Assembly (NCBI RefSeq): GCF_011045215.1
Contig: NZ_CP049201.1
Strand: one strand, 5' to 3'
DNA: 64,000 nucleotides
Source: Escherichia coli
GTDB taxonomy: Bacteria > Pseudomonadota > Gammaproteobacteria > Enterobacterales > Enterobacteriaceae
Each line of letters opens with the position of its first letter. The stretch's first letter is position 1. This document shows positions 39,475 to 44,769 of the stretch, piece after piece. The position numbers and the translations under genes are program-made. A model generated the notes under the pieces. It did not search any database and was not told the DNA's origin. It saw only the letters and a list, made by a program, of their open reading frames with translations.

Positions 39475-40407
39475 ATGCGTCGTGTAAATATTCTTTGCTC
39501 ATTTGCTCTGCTTTTTGCCAGCCAAAATAGCCTGGCGGTAACTTATCCATTACCTCCAGAGGGTAGCCGTTTAGTGGGGCAGTCGCTTACTGTAACTGTT
39601 CCTGATCACAATACTCAGCCGCTGGAGACTTTTGCCGCACAATACGGGCAAGGGTTAAGTAATATGCTGGAAGCGAATCCGGGCGCTGATGTTTTTTTGC
39701 CGAAGCCTGGCTCACAACTCACCATTCCGCAGCAACTGATTTTGCCCGCCACTGTTCGTAAAGGGATTGTGGTTAACGTCGCTGAAATGCGTCTTTATTA
39801 CTATCCGCCAGACAGTAATACAGTGGAAGTCTTTCCTATTGGTATCGGCCAGGCTGGGCGAGAAACCCCGCGTAACTGGGTGACTACCGTTGAACGTAAA
39901 CAAGAAGCACCAACTTGGACGCCAACGCCGAACACTCGGCGCGAATATGCGAAACGAGGGGAGAGTTTGCCCGCATTTGTTCCTGCGGGGCCCGATAACC
40001 CCATGGGGCTGTACGCGATTTATATTGGCAGGTTGTATGCCATCCACGGTACCAATGCCAATTTTGGTATTGGACTCCGGGTAAGTCAGGGCTGTATTCG
40101 TCTGCGCAATGACGATATCAAATATCTGTTTGATAATGTTCCTGTAGGCACTCGTGTACAAATTATTGATCAGCCAGTGAAATACACAACGGAACCGGAT
40201 GGTTCAAAGTGGCTGGAAGTTCATGAGCCGCTGTCGCGCAATCGTGCAGAATATGAGTCTGACCGAAAAGTGCCATTGCCGGTAACCCCATCTTTGCGGG
40301 CGTTTATCAACGGGCAAGAAGTTGATGTAAATCGCGCAAATGCTGCGTTGCAACATCGATCGGGAATGCCTGTGCAAATTAGTTCTGGTTCAAGACAGAT
40401 GTTTTAA
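39475..40407 (+). CDS. ldtA: L,D-transpeptidase LdtA (ErfK, 310 aa)
   Basis: ORF 39472..40407; signal peptide and YkuD catalytic motif ([20 protein letters not shown]). Confidence 0.9.
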
Positions 40408-40427
40408 GAGCGTTGGTAATTGAAAGT

Positions 40428-40456
40428 AAAAAGCCTGCTCGAAAGCAGGCTTTTTT
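40428..40456. terminator. bidirectional terminator between ldtA and tRNA-Asn
   Basis: AAGCCTGCT-cgaa-AGCAGGCTT followed by TTTTTT. Confidence 0.75.
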
Positions 40457-40461
40457 GAATT

Positions 40462-40537
40462 TGGCTCCTCTGACTGGACTCGAACCAGTGACATACGGAT
40501 TAACAGTCCGCCGTTCTACCGACTGAACTACAGAGGA
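40462..40537 (-). tRNA. asnV: tRNA-Asn(GUU)
   Basis: Reverse complement is the 76-nt tRNA-Asn sequence TCCTCTGTAGTTCAGTCGGTAGAACGGCGGACTGTTAATCCGTATGTCACTGGTTCGAGTCCAGTCAGAGGAGCCA. Confidence 0.95.
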
Positions 40538-40657
40538 ATCGTGTGAACGGGGCGCATATTAATGGCAGTGCATGGTGATGTCAAAGGGTGAAATGCATTT
40601 TTTGTTTGTTTGCTGCCAATTTCAACAAAGTGGTGAGCTTTCAATCTTATTGGGTAA

Positions 40658-40674
40658 TGAACCATCGTGGTGCA
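40658..40674 (+). promoter_or_regulatory. putative NtrC enhancer site upstream of nac
   Basis: TGAACCATCGTGGTGCA resembles the NtrC consensus TGCACC-N5-GGTGCA; about 135 bp upstream of the sigma54 promoter. Confidence 0.45.
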
Positions 40675-40791
40675 TACCCTCCTTTTATAGGGCAGGTGAA
40701 TGCGACTGCTGATAAAAAGGGCCAATGACGAATCTATCATAATCTCTTATTTGACAGTTGGTTAGCTTGCGCATCAACGCCAAAATAGAAC

Positions 40792-40807
40792 TGGCAGGCA
40801 TCTTGCA
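40792..40807 (+). promoter_or_regulatory. sigma54 (-24/-12) promoter of nac
   Basis: TGGCAG-gcatc-TTGCA matches TGGCAC-N5-TTGCA; about 55 bp upstream of the nac ATG. Confidence 0.7.
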
Positions 40808-40862
40808 TTCTGGTTGTAAGTAATGGCGGCACTTGGGCCGATTCTTAAAAACCGGAGGCAAC

Positions 40863-41780
40863 ATGAACTTCAGACGCCTGAAATACTTCGTAAAAATTGT
40901 AGATATTGGTAGCCTGACTCAGGCTGCTGAAGTATTGCATATCGCACAACCAGCGCTCAGCCAGCAGGTTGCCACACTGGAAGGTGAGTTAAATCAACAG
41001 CTTTTGATTCGCACAAAACGGGGCGTTACGCCAACAGACGCCGGAAAAATTCTCTATACCCATGCACGGGCCATTTTACGTCAGTGTGAGCAGGCCCAAC
41101 TGGCGGTGCATAACGTTGGTCAGTCATTATCGGGGCAAGTCTCGATTGGCTTTGCGCCAGGAACCGCTGTGTCATCCATCACCATGCCCTTATTACAGGC
41201 GGTTCGCGCTGAATTCCCGGAGGTCGTTATCTATCTTCATGAAAATAGTGGTGCAGTGCTTAACGAAAAACTGATAAATCACCAACTCGATATGGCGGTG
41301 ATTTATGAGCATTCCCCTGTGGCTGGTGTATCCAGTCAGGCTTTACTGAAAGAAGATCTTTTCCTGGTAGGGACTCAAGATTGTCCGGGGCAAAGCGTTG
41401 ATGTTAATGCTATTGCGCAAATGAACCTCTTTCTTCCCAGTGATTACAGTGCTGTTAGACTTCGTGTTGATGAGGCTTTTTCCCTACGACGACTCACGGC
41501 AAAAGTTATTGGTGAAATTGAGTCTATTGCCACGCTTACCGCAGCGATTGCCAGCGGCATGGGCGTTGCAGTATTACCCGAATCGGCCGCGCGTTCGTTA
41601 TGTGGCGCAGTAAATGGGTGGATGTCACGCATTACCACTCCTTCCATGAGTCTCTCTTTGTCATTAAATTTACCCGCCAGAGCGAACTTATCGCCACAGG
41701 CACAGGCAGTGAAAGAGTTGTTAATGTCAGTGATTAGTTCTCCAGTGATGGAAAAAAGGCAGTGGCAATTGGTGAGCTAA
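40863..41780 (+). CDS. nac: nitrogen assimilation control protein Nac (LysR family, 305 aa)
   Basis: ORF 40833..41780; ATG at 40863 after GGAGG; MNFRRLKYFVKIVDIGSLTQAAEVLHIAQPALSQQ... Confidence 0.93.
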   Translation: MNFRRLKYFVKIVDIGSLTQAAEVLHIAQPALSQQVATLEGELNQQLLIRTKRGVTPTDAGKILYTHARAILRQCEQAQLAVHNVGQSLSGQVSIGFAPGTAVSSITMPLLQAVRAEFPEVVIYLHENSGAVLNEKLINHQLDMAVIYEHSPVAGVSSQALLKEDLFLVGTQDCPGQSVDVNAIAQMNLFLPSDYSAVRLRVDEAFSLRRLTAKVIGEIESIATLTAAIASGMGVAVLPESAARSLCGAVNGWMSRITTPSMSLSLSLNLPARANLSPQAQAVKELLMSVISSPVMEKRQWQLVS

Positions 41781-41881
41781 GCGTTATATCGGGATGGAAT
41801 AAGATGCGGGTTTTTATTATTTGTTATGCCGGGCATTAGACTTTAACAATAACGGGAAATCTGAACTGCCCGGAGTTTACC

Positions 41882-42832
41882 GTGAATTTCCAACAACTAA
41901 AGATAATCCGCGAGGCTGCACGTCAGGATTACAACCTGACAGAGGTTGCGAATATGCTTTTTACCTCACAGTCAGGCGTCAGCCGTCATATTCGGGAACT
42001 GGAGGATGAACTTGGCATCGAAATATTTGTTCGACGAGGTAAGCGACTGCTGGGCATGACTGAACCGGGCAAAGCATTACTGGTCATTGCAGAACGTATT
42101 CTGAATGAAGCCAGTAATGTTCGTCGGCTTGCAGACCTGTTTACCAACGATACGTCTGGCGTTCTCACTATTGCAACGACGCATACTCAGGCACGTTATA
42201 GCTTGCCAGAGGTCATTAAAGCTTTTCGCGAACTTTTCCCGGAGGTTCGGCTCGAGCTAATCCAGGGGACGCCACAGGAAATTGCGACATTGTTGCAAAA
42301 TGGCGAAGCTGATATTGGTATCGCCAGCGAGCGTTTGAGTAATGACCCGCAGCTCGTCGCCTTCCCGTGGTTTCGTTGGCACCATAGTTTGCTTGTTCCA
42401 CACGATCATCCGTTGACGCAAATTTCACCATTGACGCTGGAATCAATAGCGAAGTGGCCGTTAATCACTTACCGACAGGGGATTACGGGGCGCTCACGTA
42501 TTGATGACGCATTTGCCCGCAAAGGTTTGCTGGCAGATATTGTATTAAGTGCGCAGGATTCTGATGTCATTAAAACCTATGTTGCTCTTGGGCTTGGGAT
42601 CGGATTAGTTGCCGAGCAATCCAGTGGCGAACAAGAGGAAGAGAATTTAATCCGCCTGGATACGCGGCATCTTTTTGATGCTAATACTGTCTGGTTGGGA
42701 CTGAAGCGAGGACAACTTCAGCGTAACTATGTCTGGCGCTTTCTGGAACTTTGTAATGCAGGACTGTCAGTTGAGGATATCAAGCGGCAGGTGATGGAAA
42801 GCAGTGAAGAGGAAATTGATTATCAGATATAG
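41882..42832 (+). CDS. cbl: LysR-family regulator Cbl (316 aa)
   Basis: ORF 41882..42832, MNFQQLKIIREAARQDYNLTEVANMLFTSQSGVSRHIRELE... Confidence 0.93.
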   Translation: MNFQQLKIIREAARQDYNLTEVANMLFTSQSGVSRHIRELEDELGIEIFVRRGKRLLGMTEPGKALLVIAERILNEASNVRRLADLFTNDTSGVLTIATTHTQARYSLPEVIKAFRELFPEVRLELIQGTPQEIATLLQNGEADIGIASERLSNDPQLVAFPWFRWHHSLLVPHDHPLTQISPLTLESIAKWPLITYRQGITGRSRIDDAFARKGLLADIVLSAQDSDVIKTYVALGLGIGLVAEQSSGEQEEENLIRLDTRHLFDANTVWLGLKRGQLQRNYVWRFLELCNAGLSVEDIKRQVMESSEEEIDYQI

Positions 42833-42869: not shown

Positions 42870-42945
42870 TGGCTCCTCTGACTGGACTCGAACCAGTGAC
42901 ATACGGATTAACAGTCCGCCGTTCTACCGACTGAACTACAGAGGA
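42870..42945 (-). tRNA. asnU: tRNA-Asn(GUU)
   Basis: Identical 76-nt tRNA-Asn sequence on the minus strand. Confidence 0.95.
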
Positions 42946-43105: not shown

Positions 43106-44593
43106 ATGTGGTTTCACTTTCTGCAATTAAGGTCGGCTTTGAATATCTCCTCTGCTTTACGCCAGGTTGTTCACGGCACTCGCTGGCACGATAAACGCAA
43201 GAGCTACAAAGTGTTGTTCTGGCGCGAGATAACCCCGCTTGCTGTTCCTATCTTCATGGAGAATGCCTGTGTCCTGTTGATGGGGGTTCTGAGCACTTTT
43301 CTGGTCAGCTGGCTGGGAAAAGATGCGATGGCCGGCGTGGGATTGGCGGACAGCTTCAATATGGTCATTATGGCTTTTTTTGCTGCTATCGATCTTGGTA
43401 CTACTGTCGTTGTGGCATTTAGTCTCGGTAAGCGGGATCGACGACGAGCGAGGGTGGCGACGCGGCAGTCATTGGTGATCATGACGTTGTTTGCCGTACT
43501 GTTGGCAACGCTTATTCATCATTTTGGCGAACAAATTATTGATTTCGTCGCGGGTGATGCCACGACAGAAGTTAAAGCACTGGCGTTGACTTATCTGGAG
43601 CTGACGGTACTCAGTTATCCAGCAGCTGCCATCACTCTTATTGGTAGCGGGGCACTTCGTGGTGCAGGGAATACGAAAATACCGCTATTGATTAACGGTA
43701 GCCTGAATATTCTTAATATTATTATTAGCGGCATATTGATTTACGGCCTTTTCTCCTGGCCGGGACTGGGATTTGTCGGGGCAGGGCTGGGTTTAACCAT
43801 TTCTCGTTATATTGGCGCAGTTGCAATTTTGTGGGTGCTGGCGATTGGTTTTAATCCTGCGCTAAGGATTTCGTTAAAGAGCTATTTTAAACCGCTGAAT
43901 TTTAGCATTATCTGGGAAGTCATGGGGATTGGTATTCCCGCGAGTGTCGAATCAGTGTTATTTACCAGTGGTCGGTTATTAACCCAAATGTTCGTTGCCG
44001 GGATGGGGACCAGTGTTATTGCCGGAAATTTTATCGCGTTTTCAATTGCGGCTCTTATCAACTTACCCGGAAGTGCGCTCGGCTCTGCTTCTACGATCAT
44101 TACAGGCCGAAGGTTGGGGGTAGGGCAGATAGCGCAAGCAGAGATTCAGTTGCGGCATGTGTTCTGGCTTTCCACTCTTGGATTAACGGCCATCGCCTGG
44201 CTAACGGCTCCCTTTGCCGGGGTTATGGCATCGTTTTACACCCAGGATCCACAGGTTAAACATGTCGTTGTGATTCTGATTTGGCTAAATGCTTTATTTA
44301 TGCCTATTTGGTCCGCCTCATGGGTGCTACCCGCTGGATTTAAAGGTGCTCGCGATGCCCGTTACGCCATGTGGGTTTCTATGTTGAGCATGTGGGGTTG
44401 CCGGGTTGTCGTCGGTTATGTGCTGGGCATCATGCTTGGCTGGGGTGTGGTTGGTGTCTGGATGGGAATGTTTGCCGACTGGGCTGTGCGGGCCGTGCTG
44501 TTTTACTGGCGAATGGTTACTGGACGTTGGCTGTGGAAATACCCTCGATCCGAACCGCAAAAGTGTGAAAAAAAGCCAGCTGTGTCGGAATAA
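43106..44593 (+). CDS. yeeO: MATE-family efflux transporter YeeO (495 aa; the ORF is open from 42953)
   Basis: ORF 42953..44593; start set at ATG 43106 (MWFHFLQLRSALNISS...) by recalled length; twelve-helix hydrophobic profile. Confidence 0.85.
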   Translation: MWFHFLQLRSALNISSALRQVVHGTRWHDKRKSYKVLFWREITPLAVPIFMENACVLLMGVLSTFLVSWLGKDAMAGVGLADSFNMVIMAFFAAIDLGTTVVVAFSLGKRDRRRARVATRQSLVIMTLFAVLLATLIHHFGEQIIDFVAGDATTEVKALALTYLELTVLSYPAAAITLIGSGALRGAGNTKIPLLINGSLNILNIIISGILIYGLFSWPGLGFVGAGLGLTISRYIGAVAILWVLAIGFNPALRISLKSYFKPLNFSIIWEVMGIGIPASVESVLFTSGRLLTQMFVAGMGTSVIAGNFIAFSIAALINLPGSALGSASTIITGRRLGVGQIAQAEIQLRHVFWLSTLGLTAIAWLTAPFAGVMASFYTQDPQVKHVVVILIWLNALFMPIWSASWVLPAGFKGARDARYAMWVSMLSMWGCRVVVGYVLGIMLGWGVVGVWMGMFADWAVRAVLFYWRMVTGRWLWKYPRSEPQKCEKKPAVSE

Positions 44594-44693: not shown

Positions 44694-44769
44694 TCCTCTG
44701 TAGTTCAGTCGGTAGAACGGCGGACTGTTAATCCGTATGTCACTGGTTCGAGTCCAGTCAGAGGAGCCA
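44694..44769 (+). tRNA. asnW: tRNA-Asn(GUU)
   Basis: Plus-strand copy TCCTCTGTAGTTCAGTCGG...GAGGAGCCA. Confidence 0.95.

What the first reader, a model, noticed from the sequence alone, without database searches (positions are those of the whole stretch)
40658..40862. nac preceded by a sigma54 promoter and a likely NtrC enhancer
TGGCAG-N5-TTGCA at 40792-40807 fits the -24/-12 consensus, and a dyad TGAACCATCGTGGTGCA lies about 135 bp upstream. This matches the known nitrogen-limitation control of nac and serves as a positive control on reading regulatory signals in this window.
Basis: partly seen in the sequence, partly recalled or inferred. Interest (0 to 1): 0.2.

Follow-up and report, generated by a model that had tools for sequence, protein, structure and literature searches.

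The report
Known nitrogen-controlled promoter of nac

Summary
CTGGCAGGCATCTTGCA (40791-40807, +) is the best sigma-54 PWM hit in the whole window at 16.8 bits. TGAACCATCGTGGTGCA (40658-40674) matches the NtrC consensus TGCACCAnnnTGGTGCA at 13 of 14 positions, against 0.025 such sites expected per 64 kb. The gene downstream (40863-41780) is nac, in the K-12 order cobT-ldtA-asnV-nac-cbl.

K-12 carries CTGGCAAGCATCTTGCA at the same place. That sequence lies under a published sigma-54 ChIP-seq peak and is listed as an experimentally confirmed EcoCyc promoter. NtrC ChIP-seq and in-vitro gSELEX also hit this spacer.

In 80 other Enterobacteriaceae species, every nac has a sigma-54 site 50-63 nt before the ATG. 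Each also has an NtrC-like dyad near -152, or at -141 or -130, which are steps of whole helical turns.

Other conserved parts are a second half-NtrC-like dyad 20 bp downstream of the first and an AT(C/T)-N9-TAT Nac-type site at -75. The divergent tRNA-Asn promoter fills the rest of the spacer.

Verdict: already known, low interest, and a valid positive control. The mapped transcription start could not be read, because the primary papers are not held.

The parts
40658..40674 (.). NtrC (NRI) enhancer site 1, TGAACCATCGTGGTGCA. Its centre, 40666, is -152 from the predicted start.
   Evidence: It matches TGCACCAnnnTGGTGCA at 13/14 and is the only site with <=1 mismatch in 64 kb, with 0.025 expected. 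It is the top hit (15.8 bits) of a PWM made from 54 non-Escherichia orthologous sites. An NtrC-like dyad lies at -150..-153 in 71 of 81 sequences, at -140/-141 in 2 and at -130/-131 in 7.
40675..40694 (.). Element 2, TACCCTCCTTTTATAGGGCA, the degenerate Escherichia form of the conserved dyad TACCCC-N4-GGGGCA. It is probably the adjacent low-affinity NtrC site. In this window it also reads as a perfect ATA-N9-TAT (40674-40688).
   Evidence: It lies 19-20 bp downstream of site 1 in 76 of 81 sequences and moves with site 1 when the spacer changes. It is one of the best-conserved blocks of the region. Its right half, TGGGGCA, is one base from TGGTGCA. The window version scores only -4.6 bits on the NtrC PWM. 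The perfect ATA-N9-TAT is confined to the window and K-12.
40736..40750 (.). Nac-type operator candidate ATCATAATCTCTTAT (ATC-N9-TAT), centred at -75, between enhancer and promoter. It is the presumed site of nac autorepression.
   Evidence: AT(C/T)-N9-TAT occurs at -74..-76 in 59 of 81 sequences. It sits inside a 19-bp block that is invariant in six Escherichia lineages while the flanks vary. A weak Nac ChIP-seq peak at U00096.2 2060104 maps to about window 40716 (PMC5217608 supplement). The motif itself is too loose to be informative alone: 333 hits at <=1 mismatch in the window.
40791..40807 (+). Sigma-54 (-24/-12) promoter of nac, CTGGCAGGCATCTTGCA.
   Evidence: It is the top PWM hit of the window at 16.8 bits. 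[quoted passage not shown] A site scoring 14.7-18.5 bits lies with its GC 50-63 nt before the ATG in all 80 other species.
40818..40862 (+). Predicted transcription start (40818, A) and 45-nt leader. The leader holds a small hairpin, CGGC 40827-40830 with GCCG 40837-40840, and the Shine-Dalgarno GGAGG at 40854-40858.
   Evidence: The start is placed 19 bp downstream of the motif centre, following the rule of PMC4591121, which gives 45 nt to the nac start in K-12 as well. The hairpin is in the minimum-free-energy fold, but its energy is no better than shuffles, z = 0.28. Across 67 distinct leaders, 72.7% of cells pair against 27-40% for slid controls, and the covariation score is 0.228 against 0.158 with 0/500 shuffles reaching it.
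40863..41780 (+). nac coding sequence (305 aa), the regulated gene.
   Evidence: See (NF008410 equivalog, 597 bits), and for annotation as nac in 5,400+ E. coli genomes and in K-12.
40556..40632 (-). Divergent tRNA-Asn (asnV) promoter. It shares the spacer but is not part of the nac control region. It has -35 TTGACA (40584-40579), -10 TAATAT (40561-40556), a GC-rich discriminator, and a conserved upstream block at 40605-40632.
   Evidence: The promoter scan matches 10/12. The same hexamers, the same discriminator and a similar GCAGCAAAC block lie upstream of the other Asn tRNA genes in the window. The block is highly conserved across species. The tRNA lies at 40462-40537, minus strand.

Best explanation
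This is the regulatory region of nac, which works as a classic bacterial enhancer-dependent promoter.

RNA polymerase carrying sigma-54 sits on the -24/-12 element (40791-40807) as a closed complex that cannot start on its own. Under nitrogen limitation, phosphorylated NtrC binds the dyad at 40658-40674, probably helped by the adjacent weak element at 40675-40694, and assembles into an oligomer. The roughly 125 bp of DNA in between loops, so that NtrC touches the polymerase and uses ATP to open the promoter. Transcription then starts near 40818 and yields a 45-nt leader and nac.

Nac protein probably binds the ATC-N9-TAT site at -75, between enhancer and promoter, and damps its own synthesis.

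Shown here:
- motif quality, position and conservation
- gene identity
- published in-vivo and in-vitro binding of sigma-54 and NtrC to this spacer in K-12

Inferred:
- the exact start site
- that NtrC contacts exactly this dyad in this strain
- the role of element 2
- Nac autorepression, which is known for Klebsiella from my own recollection of Feng et al. 1995 and was not read here
For: - Sequence and coordinates.
- Gene identity and synteny.
- The regulatory region is 98% identical to K-12, with the dyad identical and one non-critical change in the promoter.
- Sigma-54 PWM top hit.
- Chance estimates.
- Sigma-54 ChIP-seq site OS19 with motif CTGGCAAGCATCTTGCA, 45 nt to nac, marked confirmed in EcoCyc, with RNA rising under nitrogen limitation.
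- NtrC ChIP-seq peak assigned to nac-cbl.
- gSELEX peaks for RpoN holoenzyme, for NtrC and for both together in the nac/asnV spacer.
- Published NtrC consensus.
- About 60-fold induction of nac when glutamine falls, with nac classed among promoters with weak enhancers (PMC10657418).
- All 80 species carry the same architecture.
- Enhancer-promoter distance changes only by about 11 or about 21-22 bp, as expected if the enhancer must stay on one face of the helix.
- The other three Asn tRNA genes in the window have no such dyad, so it belongs to nac and not to the tRNA promoter.
Against: - Taken alone, a sigma-54 site of this score is expected 0.32 times per random 64 kb, and consensus-level matching is at chance.
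- The published NtrC ChIP-seq bin (U00096.2 2059941-2060021) maps to window 40799-40879, over the promoter and not the dyad. The gSELEX peak (2060070) maps to about 40750. So no data set I could read places NtrC on the dyad itself. The ChIP bins for astC, argT and yeaG likewise coincide with the sigma-54 motifs, so this looks like a property of the method.
- Element 2 in this window is a poor NtrC match.
- The window promoter allele, with G instead of A after TGGCA, is rare: an identical 61-mer occurs in 21 genome records, out of 5,426 genomes searched. This allele has not itself been tested.
- The mapped start site could not be consulted.
Confidence: 0.95

Rival explanations
1. The -24/-12 match is a chance resemblance, and nac is transcribed from an ordinary sigma-70 promoter elsewhere in the spacer.
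For: A site of this PWM score is expected 0.32 times per random 64 kb. Consensus matching is at chance.
Against: The only sigma-70-like hits in 40380-40900 are on the opposite strand and serve the tRNA. The site is conserved at a fixed distance from the ATG in 80 species. Sigma-54 is bound there in vivo in K-12.
Confidence: 0.01
2. The dyad at 40658-40674 serves the divergent tRNA-Asn promoter, or a regulator other than NtrC, rather than being the nac enhancer.
For: It lies about 117 bp upstream of the predicted asnV start. The divergent tRNA-Asn/nac arrangement is conserved in all 16 loci checked, so its distance to the tRNA is conserved as well. No available binding data resolve the dyad itself.
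Against: It fits the NtrC consensus at 13/14. The block shared with the other Asn tRNA promoters ends at about 40632, and those genes have no NtrC-like dyad. NtrC alone selects this spacer in vitro. Its distance to the sigma-54 promoter changes only in whole helical turns.
Confidence: 0.03
3. Element 2 (TACCCC-N4-GGGGCA in most genera) is not a weak NtrC site but the target of another, unidentified protein. In E. coli, where it reads ATA-N9-TAT, that protein could be Nac itself.
For: It is conserved at least as well as site 1. Its spacer is one base shorter than an NtrC site, and its left half is unlike TGCACC. The window version scores -4.6 bits on an NtrC PWM. A perfect Nac consensus lies at 40674-40688. 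The weak Nac ChIP peak at about 40716 lies between this element and the -75 site.
Against: The right half is one base from TGGTGCA. The element is always 19-20 bp (two turns) from site 1 and travels with it, as expected for a cooperative second NtrC site. The ATA-N9-TAT reading is not conserved even within Escherichia. From my recollection (not read here), the Klebsiella nac enhancer was described as one strong and one adjacent weak NtrC site.
Confidence: 0.12

Closest known systems
Escherichia coli K-12 nac promoter (nacp; Muse & Bender 1998; site OS19 of Bonocora et al. 2015, PMC4591121)
   Same: It has the same gene, the same neighbours and the same spacing. The NtrC dyad, the -75 block, the leader and the Shine-Dalgarno sequence are identical. 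The region is 98% identical overall.
   Different: Changes in or next to the promoter: A to G at the base after TGGCA and A to T just after TTGCA. The PWM score is 16.8 against 17.6 bits. There are a few substitutions in the variable stretch 40700-40725. The exact 61-nt allele is in only 21 genome records, out of 5,426 genomes searched.
Klebsiella (aerogenes/pneumoniae) nac promoter (Feng, Goss, Bender & Ninfa 1995; cited in PMC4740811)
   Same: The layout is the same in the K. pneumoniae locus L076: TGCACCGTTGTAGTGCG near -152, TACCCCTAATGGGGCA 20 bp downstream, ATC-N9-TAT at -75, and CTGGCAAGCAAATTGCA. PMC4740811 cites it as an example of a repressor bound between activator and sigma-54 promoter.
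   Different: Escherichia has a weaker left half in site 1 (TGAACC instead of TGCACC) and a degraded element 2, with an inserted run and TAGGGCA instead of TGGGGCA. Details of the Klebsiella footprints and of the face-of-helix experiments come from my memory of the abstracts, not from a paper I could read.
glnAp2 and glnK promoters of E. coli (other NtrC/sigma-54 promoters)
   Same: They use the same mechanism: a sigma-54 closed complex activated by NtrC-phosphate from upstream sites through a DNA loop.
   Different: glnAp2 has two strong NtrC sites and fires early. nac and glnK have weaker enhancers and fire only on real starvation (PMC10657418; PMC3870243). nac additionally carries a Nac-type site inside the loop.

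Membership tests
Sigma-54 (RpoN) -24/-12 promoter | GG and GC doublets exactly 10 bp apart within a match to YTGGCACGrNNNTTGCW | tested here: met
   CTGGCAGGCATCTTGCA has GG at 40793-94 and GC at 40805-06. It has one mismatch to TGGCAC-N5-TTGCW and scores 16.8 bits, the top of the window.
Sigma-54 (RpoN) -24/-12 promoter | Correct orientation and short distance upstream of a gene | tested here: met
   It is on the + strand, with the predicted start 45 nt before the nac ATG. The same holds in 80 species.
Sigma-54 (RpoN) -24/-12 promoter | Occupied by sigma-54 holoenzyme; transcription depends on rpoN | not testable with these tools
   This is shown for the K-12 ortholog in the literature (ChIP-seq in PMC4591121; gSELEX in PMC8743547). 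It has not been shown for this allele.
Sigma-54 (RpoN) -24/-12 promoter | Mapped transcription start about 11-12 nt downstream of the GC | not tested
   The primary papers are not held. No start was found in the supplements searched. Only the predicted start, 40818, is available.
NtrC (NRI, GlnG) enhancer | 17-bp dyad matching TGCACCAnnnTGGTGCA | tested here: met
   It matches at 13/14, with 0.025 such sites expected per 64 kb. It is the top hit of the ortholog-derived PWM.
NtrC (NRI, GlnG) enhancer | Located about 100 bp or more upstream of a sigma-54 promoter, with a second site nearby on the same helical face for oligomer assembly | tested here: inconclusive
   The distance is met, with the centre at -152. 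A conserved second dyad lies 20 bp away in 76/81 sequences. Only its right half is NtrC-like, and the window copy scores -4.6 bits.
NtrC (NRI, GlnG) enhancer | Bound by NtrC; activation needs NtrC-phosphate | not testable with these tools
   For K-12, a ChIP-seq peak and a gSELEX peak fall in this spacer. Both lie 80-170 bp from the dyad, so the exact contact is inferred.
Nac (LysR-type) operator, ATA-N9-TAT | Match to ATA-N9-TAT at a conserved position | tested here: inconclusive
   ATC-N9-TAT at -75 has one mismatch. AT(C/T)-N9-TAT occurs at -74..-76 in 59/81 sequences, and the block is invariant within Escherichia. The pattern is very loose, with 333 hits in the window. A perfect but non-conserved match lies at 40674-40688.
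Nac (LysR-type) operator, ATA-N9-TAT | Bound by Nac, with repression of nac | not testable with these tools
   Only a weak Nac ChIP-seq peak (coverage 5) about 27 bp away in K-12 is available.
nac gene (NCBIfam NF008410) | Full-length match above the curated cutoff | tested here: met
   It scores 597.2 bits against a cutoff of 309, over residues 1-305 of 305.

The most novel reading that the evidence does not exclude
The nac control region may hold more than the textbook parts.

1. The dyad TACCCC-N4-GGGGCA next to the NtrC site is conserved as strongly as the NtrC site itself. It could be the target of a further regulator rather than a weak NtrC site.
2. A small leader hairpin with compensatory changes could add post-transcriptional control.
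3. Several genera (Kluyvera, Pseudocitrobacter, the Citrobacter freundii group) have lost the -75 Nac-type site. In the first two this came with deletions of exactly one or two helical turns. That would mean nac autoregulation has been rewired lineage by lineage.
Probability: 0.15. Interest if true: 0.3.

Novelty: already known. Interest (0 to 1): 0.08.

Why it matters
It matters mainly as a calibration point. A reader without tools correctly located a sigma-54 promoter and its enhancer from raw sequence, and the check shows which kinds of evidence carry the call. A single consensus match is at chance level in 64 kb. The call rests on the pairing of the two motifs, their position before nac, and their conservation. 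The cross-species comparison adds a compact natural illustration of helical phasing between a weak enhancer and its promoter.

Tried and rejected
- The primary papers could not be opened: Muse & Bender 1998; Feng et al. 1995a,b; Reitzer & Schneider 2001; Atkinson 2002; Bender 2010.
- Supplements searched for a nac start site or exact binding coordinates gave only the gSELEX motif, a weak Nac peak and expression values.
- The terminator-like call at 40794-40806 is just the partial self-complementarity of the -24/-12 element and has no T run of note. I rejected it.
- No IHF site (WATCAANNNNTTR, <=1 mismatch) lies between enhancer and promoter. The nearest hits are at 40315 and 40992.
- Rfam with permissive thresholds finds only the tRNA. 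The weak hits at 40377-40461 fall on the ldtA/asnV terminator.
- RNAalifold on 67 leaders gave no consensus structure. The hand-drawn 5-bp stem has modest covariation support. An alternative 4-bp stem has none. The window leader folds no better than shuffles.
- The perfect ATA-N9-TAT at 40674-40688 is not conserved within Escherichia, so I do not prefer it as the Nac operator.
- The second-best sigma-54 PWM hit, inside yeeO (43183-43199), lacks the TTGC. It is present in K-12 with one change, yet yeeO is not among the published sigma-54 sites. I treat it as chance.
- PMC10083551 came up in the search but does not mention nac.

Full report
**What is at the coordinates.** CTGGCAGGCATCTTGCA lies at 40791-40807 on the + strand, with GG at 40793-94 and GC at 40805-06. 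TGAACCATCGTGGTGCA lies at 40658-40674, 134 bp upstream start-to-start. The finding ends one base before an ATG at 40863 that opens a 305-codon frame ending at 41780.

That protein is Nac: NCBIfam equivalog NF008410 scores 597 bits against a cutoff of 309 over its full length. The next gene is Cbl. The neighbourhood is cobT, ldtA, tRNA-Asn (minus strand, 40462-40537), nac, cbl, tRNA-Asn, yeeO. This is the K-12 order around 2.06 Mb, and more than 5,400 E. coli genomes carry the same stretch annotated in the same way.

The spacer is 98% identical to K-12. The dyad, the leader and the ribosome site are identical. The promoter differs by A to G after TGGCA and by A to T just after TTGCA.

**Is it more than chance?** Simple consensus matching is not. 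TGGCACN5TTGCW with one mismatch is found 4 times against 3.7 expected. A loose NtrC pattern is found 4 times against 3.5 expected.

I built a weight matrix from 41 intergenic sigma-54 ChIP-seq motifs printed in Bonocora et al. 2015 (PMC4591121), leaving nac out. The nac site is the best of 128,000 positions in the window at 16.8 bits, above the median of the training sites. A first-order random model still gives 0.32 such sites per 64 kb.

The dyad is rarer. It matches the published consensus TGCACCAnnnTGGTGCA (PMC8743547) at 13 of 14 positions. It is the only site with at most one mismatch in the window, and 0.025 are expected. The two together, in this order and within the usual distance, come to about 1.5e-5 per window by my arithmetic. 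A matrix built from the orthologous sites of 54 non-Escherichia sequences also ranks this dyad first in the window at 15.8 bits.

**Evidence from elsewhere.** In K-12 the orthologous 17-mer CTGGCAAGCATCTTGCA is site OS19 of the sigma-54 ChIP-seq. Its motif centre is 3 bp from the peak centre, and the predicted start is 45 nt from the nac start. It is flagged as experimentally confirmed in EcoCyc and was used by those authors as their own positive control for induction under nitrogen limitation.

NtrC ChIP-seq lists a strong peak for nac-cbl (PMC4066584). In-vitro genomic SELEX recovers the nac/asnV spacer with RpoN holoenzyme, with NtrC alone, and with both together (PMC8743547). nac is silent in ammonium and rises about 60-fold when glutamine drops. 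It is grouped with promoters that have weak enhancers (PMC10657418; see also PMC3870243).

One limit applies. After converting coordinates (offset 1976 between U00096.2 and NC_000913.3, checked on the sigma-54 motif), the NtrC ChIP bin maps to window 40799-40879 and the SELEX peak to about 40750. Neither resolves the dyad at 40658-40674. The ChIP bins for astC, argT and yeaG also coincide with their sigma-54 motifs, so I read this as a property of the method.

**Comparison across species.** A scan of one genome per species returned 80 nac loci from Escherichia, Citrobacter, Enterobacter, Klebsiella, Raoultella, Kluyvera, Kosakonia, Lelliottia, Leclercia, Siccibacter and others.

- Every one has a sigma-54 site of 14.7-18.5 bits with its GC 50-63 nt before the ATG, and an NtrC-like dyad upstream.
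- Relative to the predicted start, the dyad centre lies at -150 to -153 in 71 of 81 sequences, at -140/-141 in two (Pseudocitrobacter) and at -130/-131 in seven (Kluyvera and a relative). One ambiguous case remains.
- The spacer therefore changes only by about one or two helical turns. This fits an enhancer that must stay on one face of the helix. I recall that such a dependence was reported for the Klebsiella nac promoter by Feng et al. 1995, but I could not read that paper.

**Other conserved blocks.**

1. A dyad TACCCC-N4-GGGGCA lies 19-20 bp downstream of site 1 in 76 of 81 sequences and moves with it. Its right half is one base from TGGTGCA, so it is the likely weak second NtrC site. Escherichia has a degraded form, TACCCTCCTTTTATAGGGCA at 40675-40694, which scores only -4.6 bits.
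2. AT(C/T)-N9-TAT lies at -74 to -76 in 59 of 81 sequences. In the window it is ATCATAATCTCTTAT at 40736-40750, inside a 19-bp block that is invariant in six Escherichia lineages. This is one mismatch from the Nac consensus ATA-N9-TAT quoted in the supplement of PMC5217608. It sits between enhancer and promoter, where the Klebsiella nac promoter is cited as a case of repression inside the loop (PMC4740811). A weak Nac ChIP-seq peak maps about 27 bp away. The motif is too loose to stand alone. It is missing in Kluyvera, Pseudocitrobacter and the Citrobacter freundii group.
3. The promoter itself, with the A-run just upstream of it.
4. The ribosome binding site.

**The rest of the spacer.** The left part of the spacer belongs to the divergent tRNA-Asn gene. 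It carries TTGACA-17-TAATAT on the minus strand (40584-40556), followed by a GC-rich discriminator. A conserved upstream block at 40605-40632 follows. The same hexamers lie before all three other Asn tRNA genes of the window, and a similar upstream block before two of them; none of the three has an NtrC-like dyad. The divergent tRNA-Asn/nac pairing holds in all 16 loci checked.

**Mechanism.** Sigma-54 polymerase forms a closed complex at 40791-40807. NtrC-phosphate binds 40658-40674, with help from the neighbouring weak element. The DNA loops, and ATP hydrolysis by NtrC opens the promoter. Transcription then starts near 40818. Nac probably binds at -75 and limits its own synthesis.

The motifs, positions, conservation and gene identity are shown here. 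Binding in K-12 is taken from the cited papers. The exact start, the precise NtrC contact, the role of element 2 and autorepression in Escherichia are inferred.

**Rivals.**

- A chance match with a sigma-70 promoter for nac is excluded for practical purposes.
- A role of the dyad for the tRNA promoter or for another regulator is unlikely.
- That element 2 binds something other than NtrC remains open at low probability.

**Side checks.**

- No IHF site lies in the loop, and Rfam finds no family other than the tRNA.
- The terminator-like hit inside the promoter is an artefact of its partial symmetry.
- A 4-5 bp leader hairpin has modest covariation support, but it has no energetic distinction in the window, and RNAalifold finds no consensus structure.
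- The reported GlnZ-nac mRNA contact lies in the coding region, not the leader (PMC10954441).

**Verdict.** The feature is the known nac promoter, so novelty is nil and interest is low. It is a sound positive control. The lesson is that the confidence comes from the combination of motifs, their context and their conservation, not from either motif alone.

Noticed in passing
window 40556-40632 (minus strand): This is the predicted promoter of the divergent tRNA-Asn gene: TTGACA-17-TAATAT, a GC-rich discriminator, and a strongly conserved upstream block GTTTGCTG(A/C)CAATTTCA(G/A)CAAAG. In most genera the block is a near-perfect inverted repeat, TTGCTGA-N5-TCAGCAA. The same hexamers lie before all three other Asn tRNA genes in the window, and a similar block before two of them. 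The block sits where FIS/UP elements lie in stable-RNA promoters, but no binding protein was identified.
   Followed up: partly
loci L038, L047-L049, L057, L060, L064 (Kluyvera group); L052, L053 (Pseudocitrobacter); compare window 40695-40790: The enhancer-to-promoter spacer is shorter by about 21-22 bp in the Kluyvera group and about 11 bp in Pseudocitrobacter. These are whole helical turns. In these lineages the -75 AT(C/T)-N9-TAT site is gone. The Citrobacter freundii group keeps the spacing but also lacks the site.
   Followed up: partly
window 40827-40840; alignment A4 columns 12-16 with 25-29: A small hairpin lies in the nac leader (GCCAG...CUGGC in most genera, CGGC...GCCG in Escherichia). 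It shows some compensatory changes, such as CCGU/ACGG, CCGG/CCGG and CCGA/UCGG. Of the cells, 72.7% pair against 27-40% for slid controls, but about a quarter are unpaired and the window fold is no more stable than shuffles.
   Followed up: partly
loci such as L039, L041, L046, L058, L063-L065, L070, directly after TTGCA of the -12 element (window equivalent 40808-40817): Many genera have ACTCCTCCGA in the 10 bases between the -12 element and the predicted start. This is an anti-Shine-Dalgarno-like CT-rich run. Escherichia has TTCTGGTTGT instead. It would be transcribed only by read-through from upstream. Its meaning is unknown.
   Followed up: no
window 40674-40688: A perfect Nac consensus, ATA-N9-TAT (ATACCCTCCTTTTAT), overlaps element 2 of the enhancer. 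It is present in the window and in K-12 but not in the four other Escherichia lineages compared.
   Followed up: yes
window 40770-40830 and 40400-41900: The window is not K-12-like. The 1.5-kb nac region is at most 99.5% identical to any complete E. coli genome, and most are 95-99%. The exact 61-nt promoter allele (TGGCAG) is found in only 21 genome records, out of 5,426 genomes searched. The Nac protein is closest (98%) to that of an 'Escherichia sp. MOD1' genome.
   Followed up: partly
window 43183-43199 (+), inside yeeO: This is the second-best sigma-54 PWM hit of the window, CTGGCACGATAAACGCA at 15.2 bits, in the sense orientation within yeeO. K-12 has it with one change, yet yeeO is not among the published sigma-54 ChIP-seq sites. 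It is probably a chance match lacking TTGC.
   Followed up: partly
window 40428-40455: A 12-bp stem-loop flanked by A and T runs lies between the end of ldtA (+) and the 3' end of tRNA-Asn (-). It looks like a shared bidirectional terminator. Weak sub-threshold Rfam hits (STnc370, AgrB, leader families) fall on it and are most likely due to the hairpin alone.
   Followed up: no
window 40462-40537, 42870-42945, 44694-44769, 58170-58245, 59237-59326: Four identical tRNA-Asn(GUU) genes and one tRNA-Ser(CGA) lie within 19 kb, as in K-12 (asnV, asnU, asnW, asnT, serU). The 13.4-kb gap between the last two Asn genes is the same length I recall for K-12, so no island seems to be inserted at these tRNA sites. 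This was not checked further.
   Followed up: no
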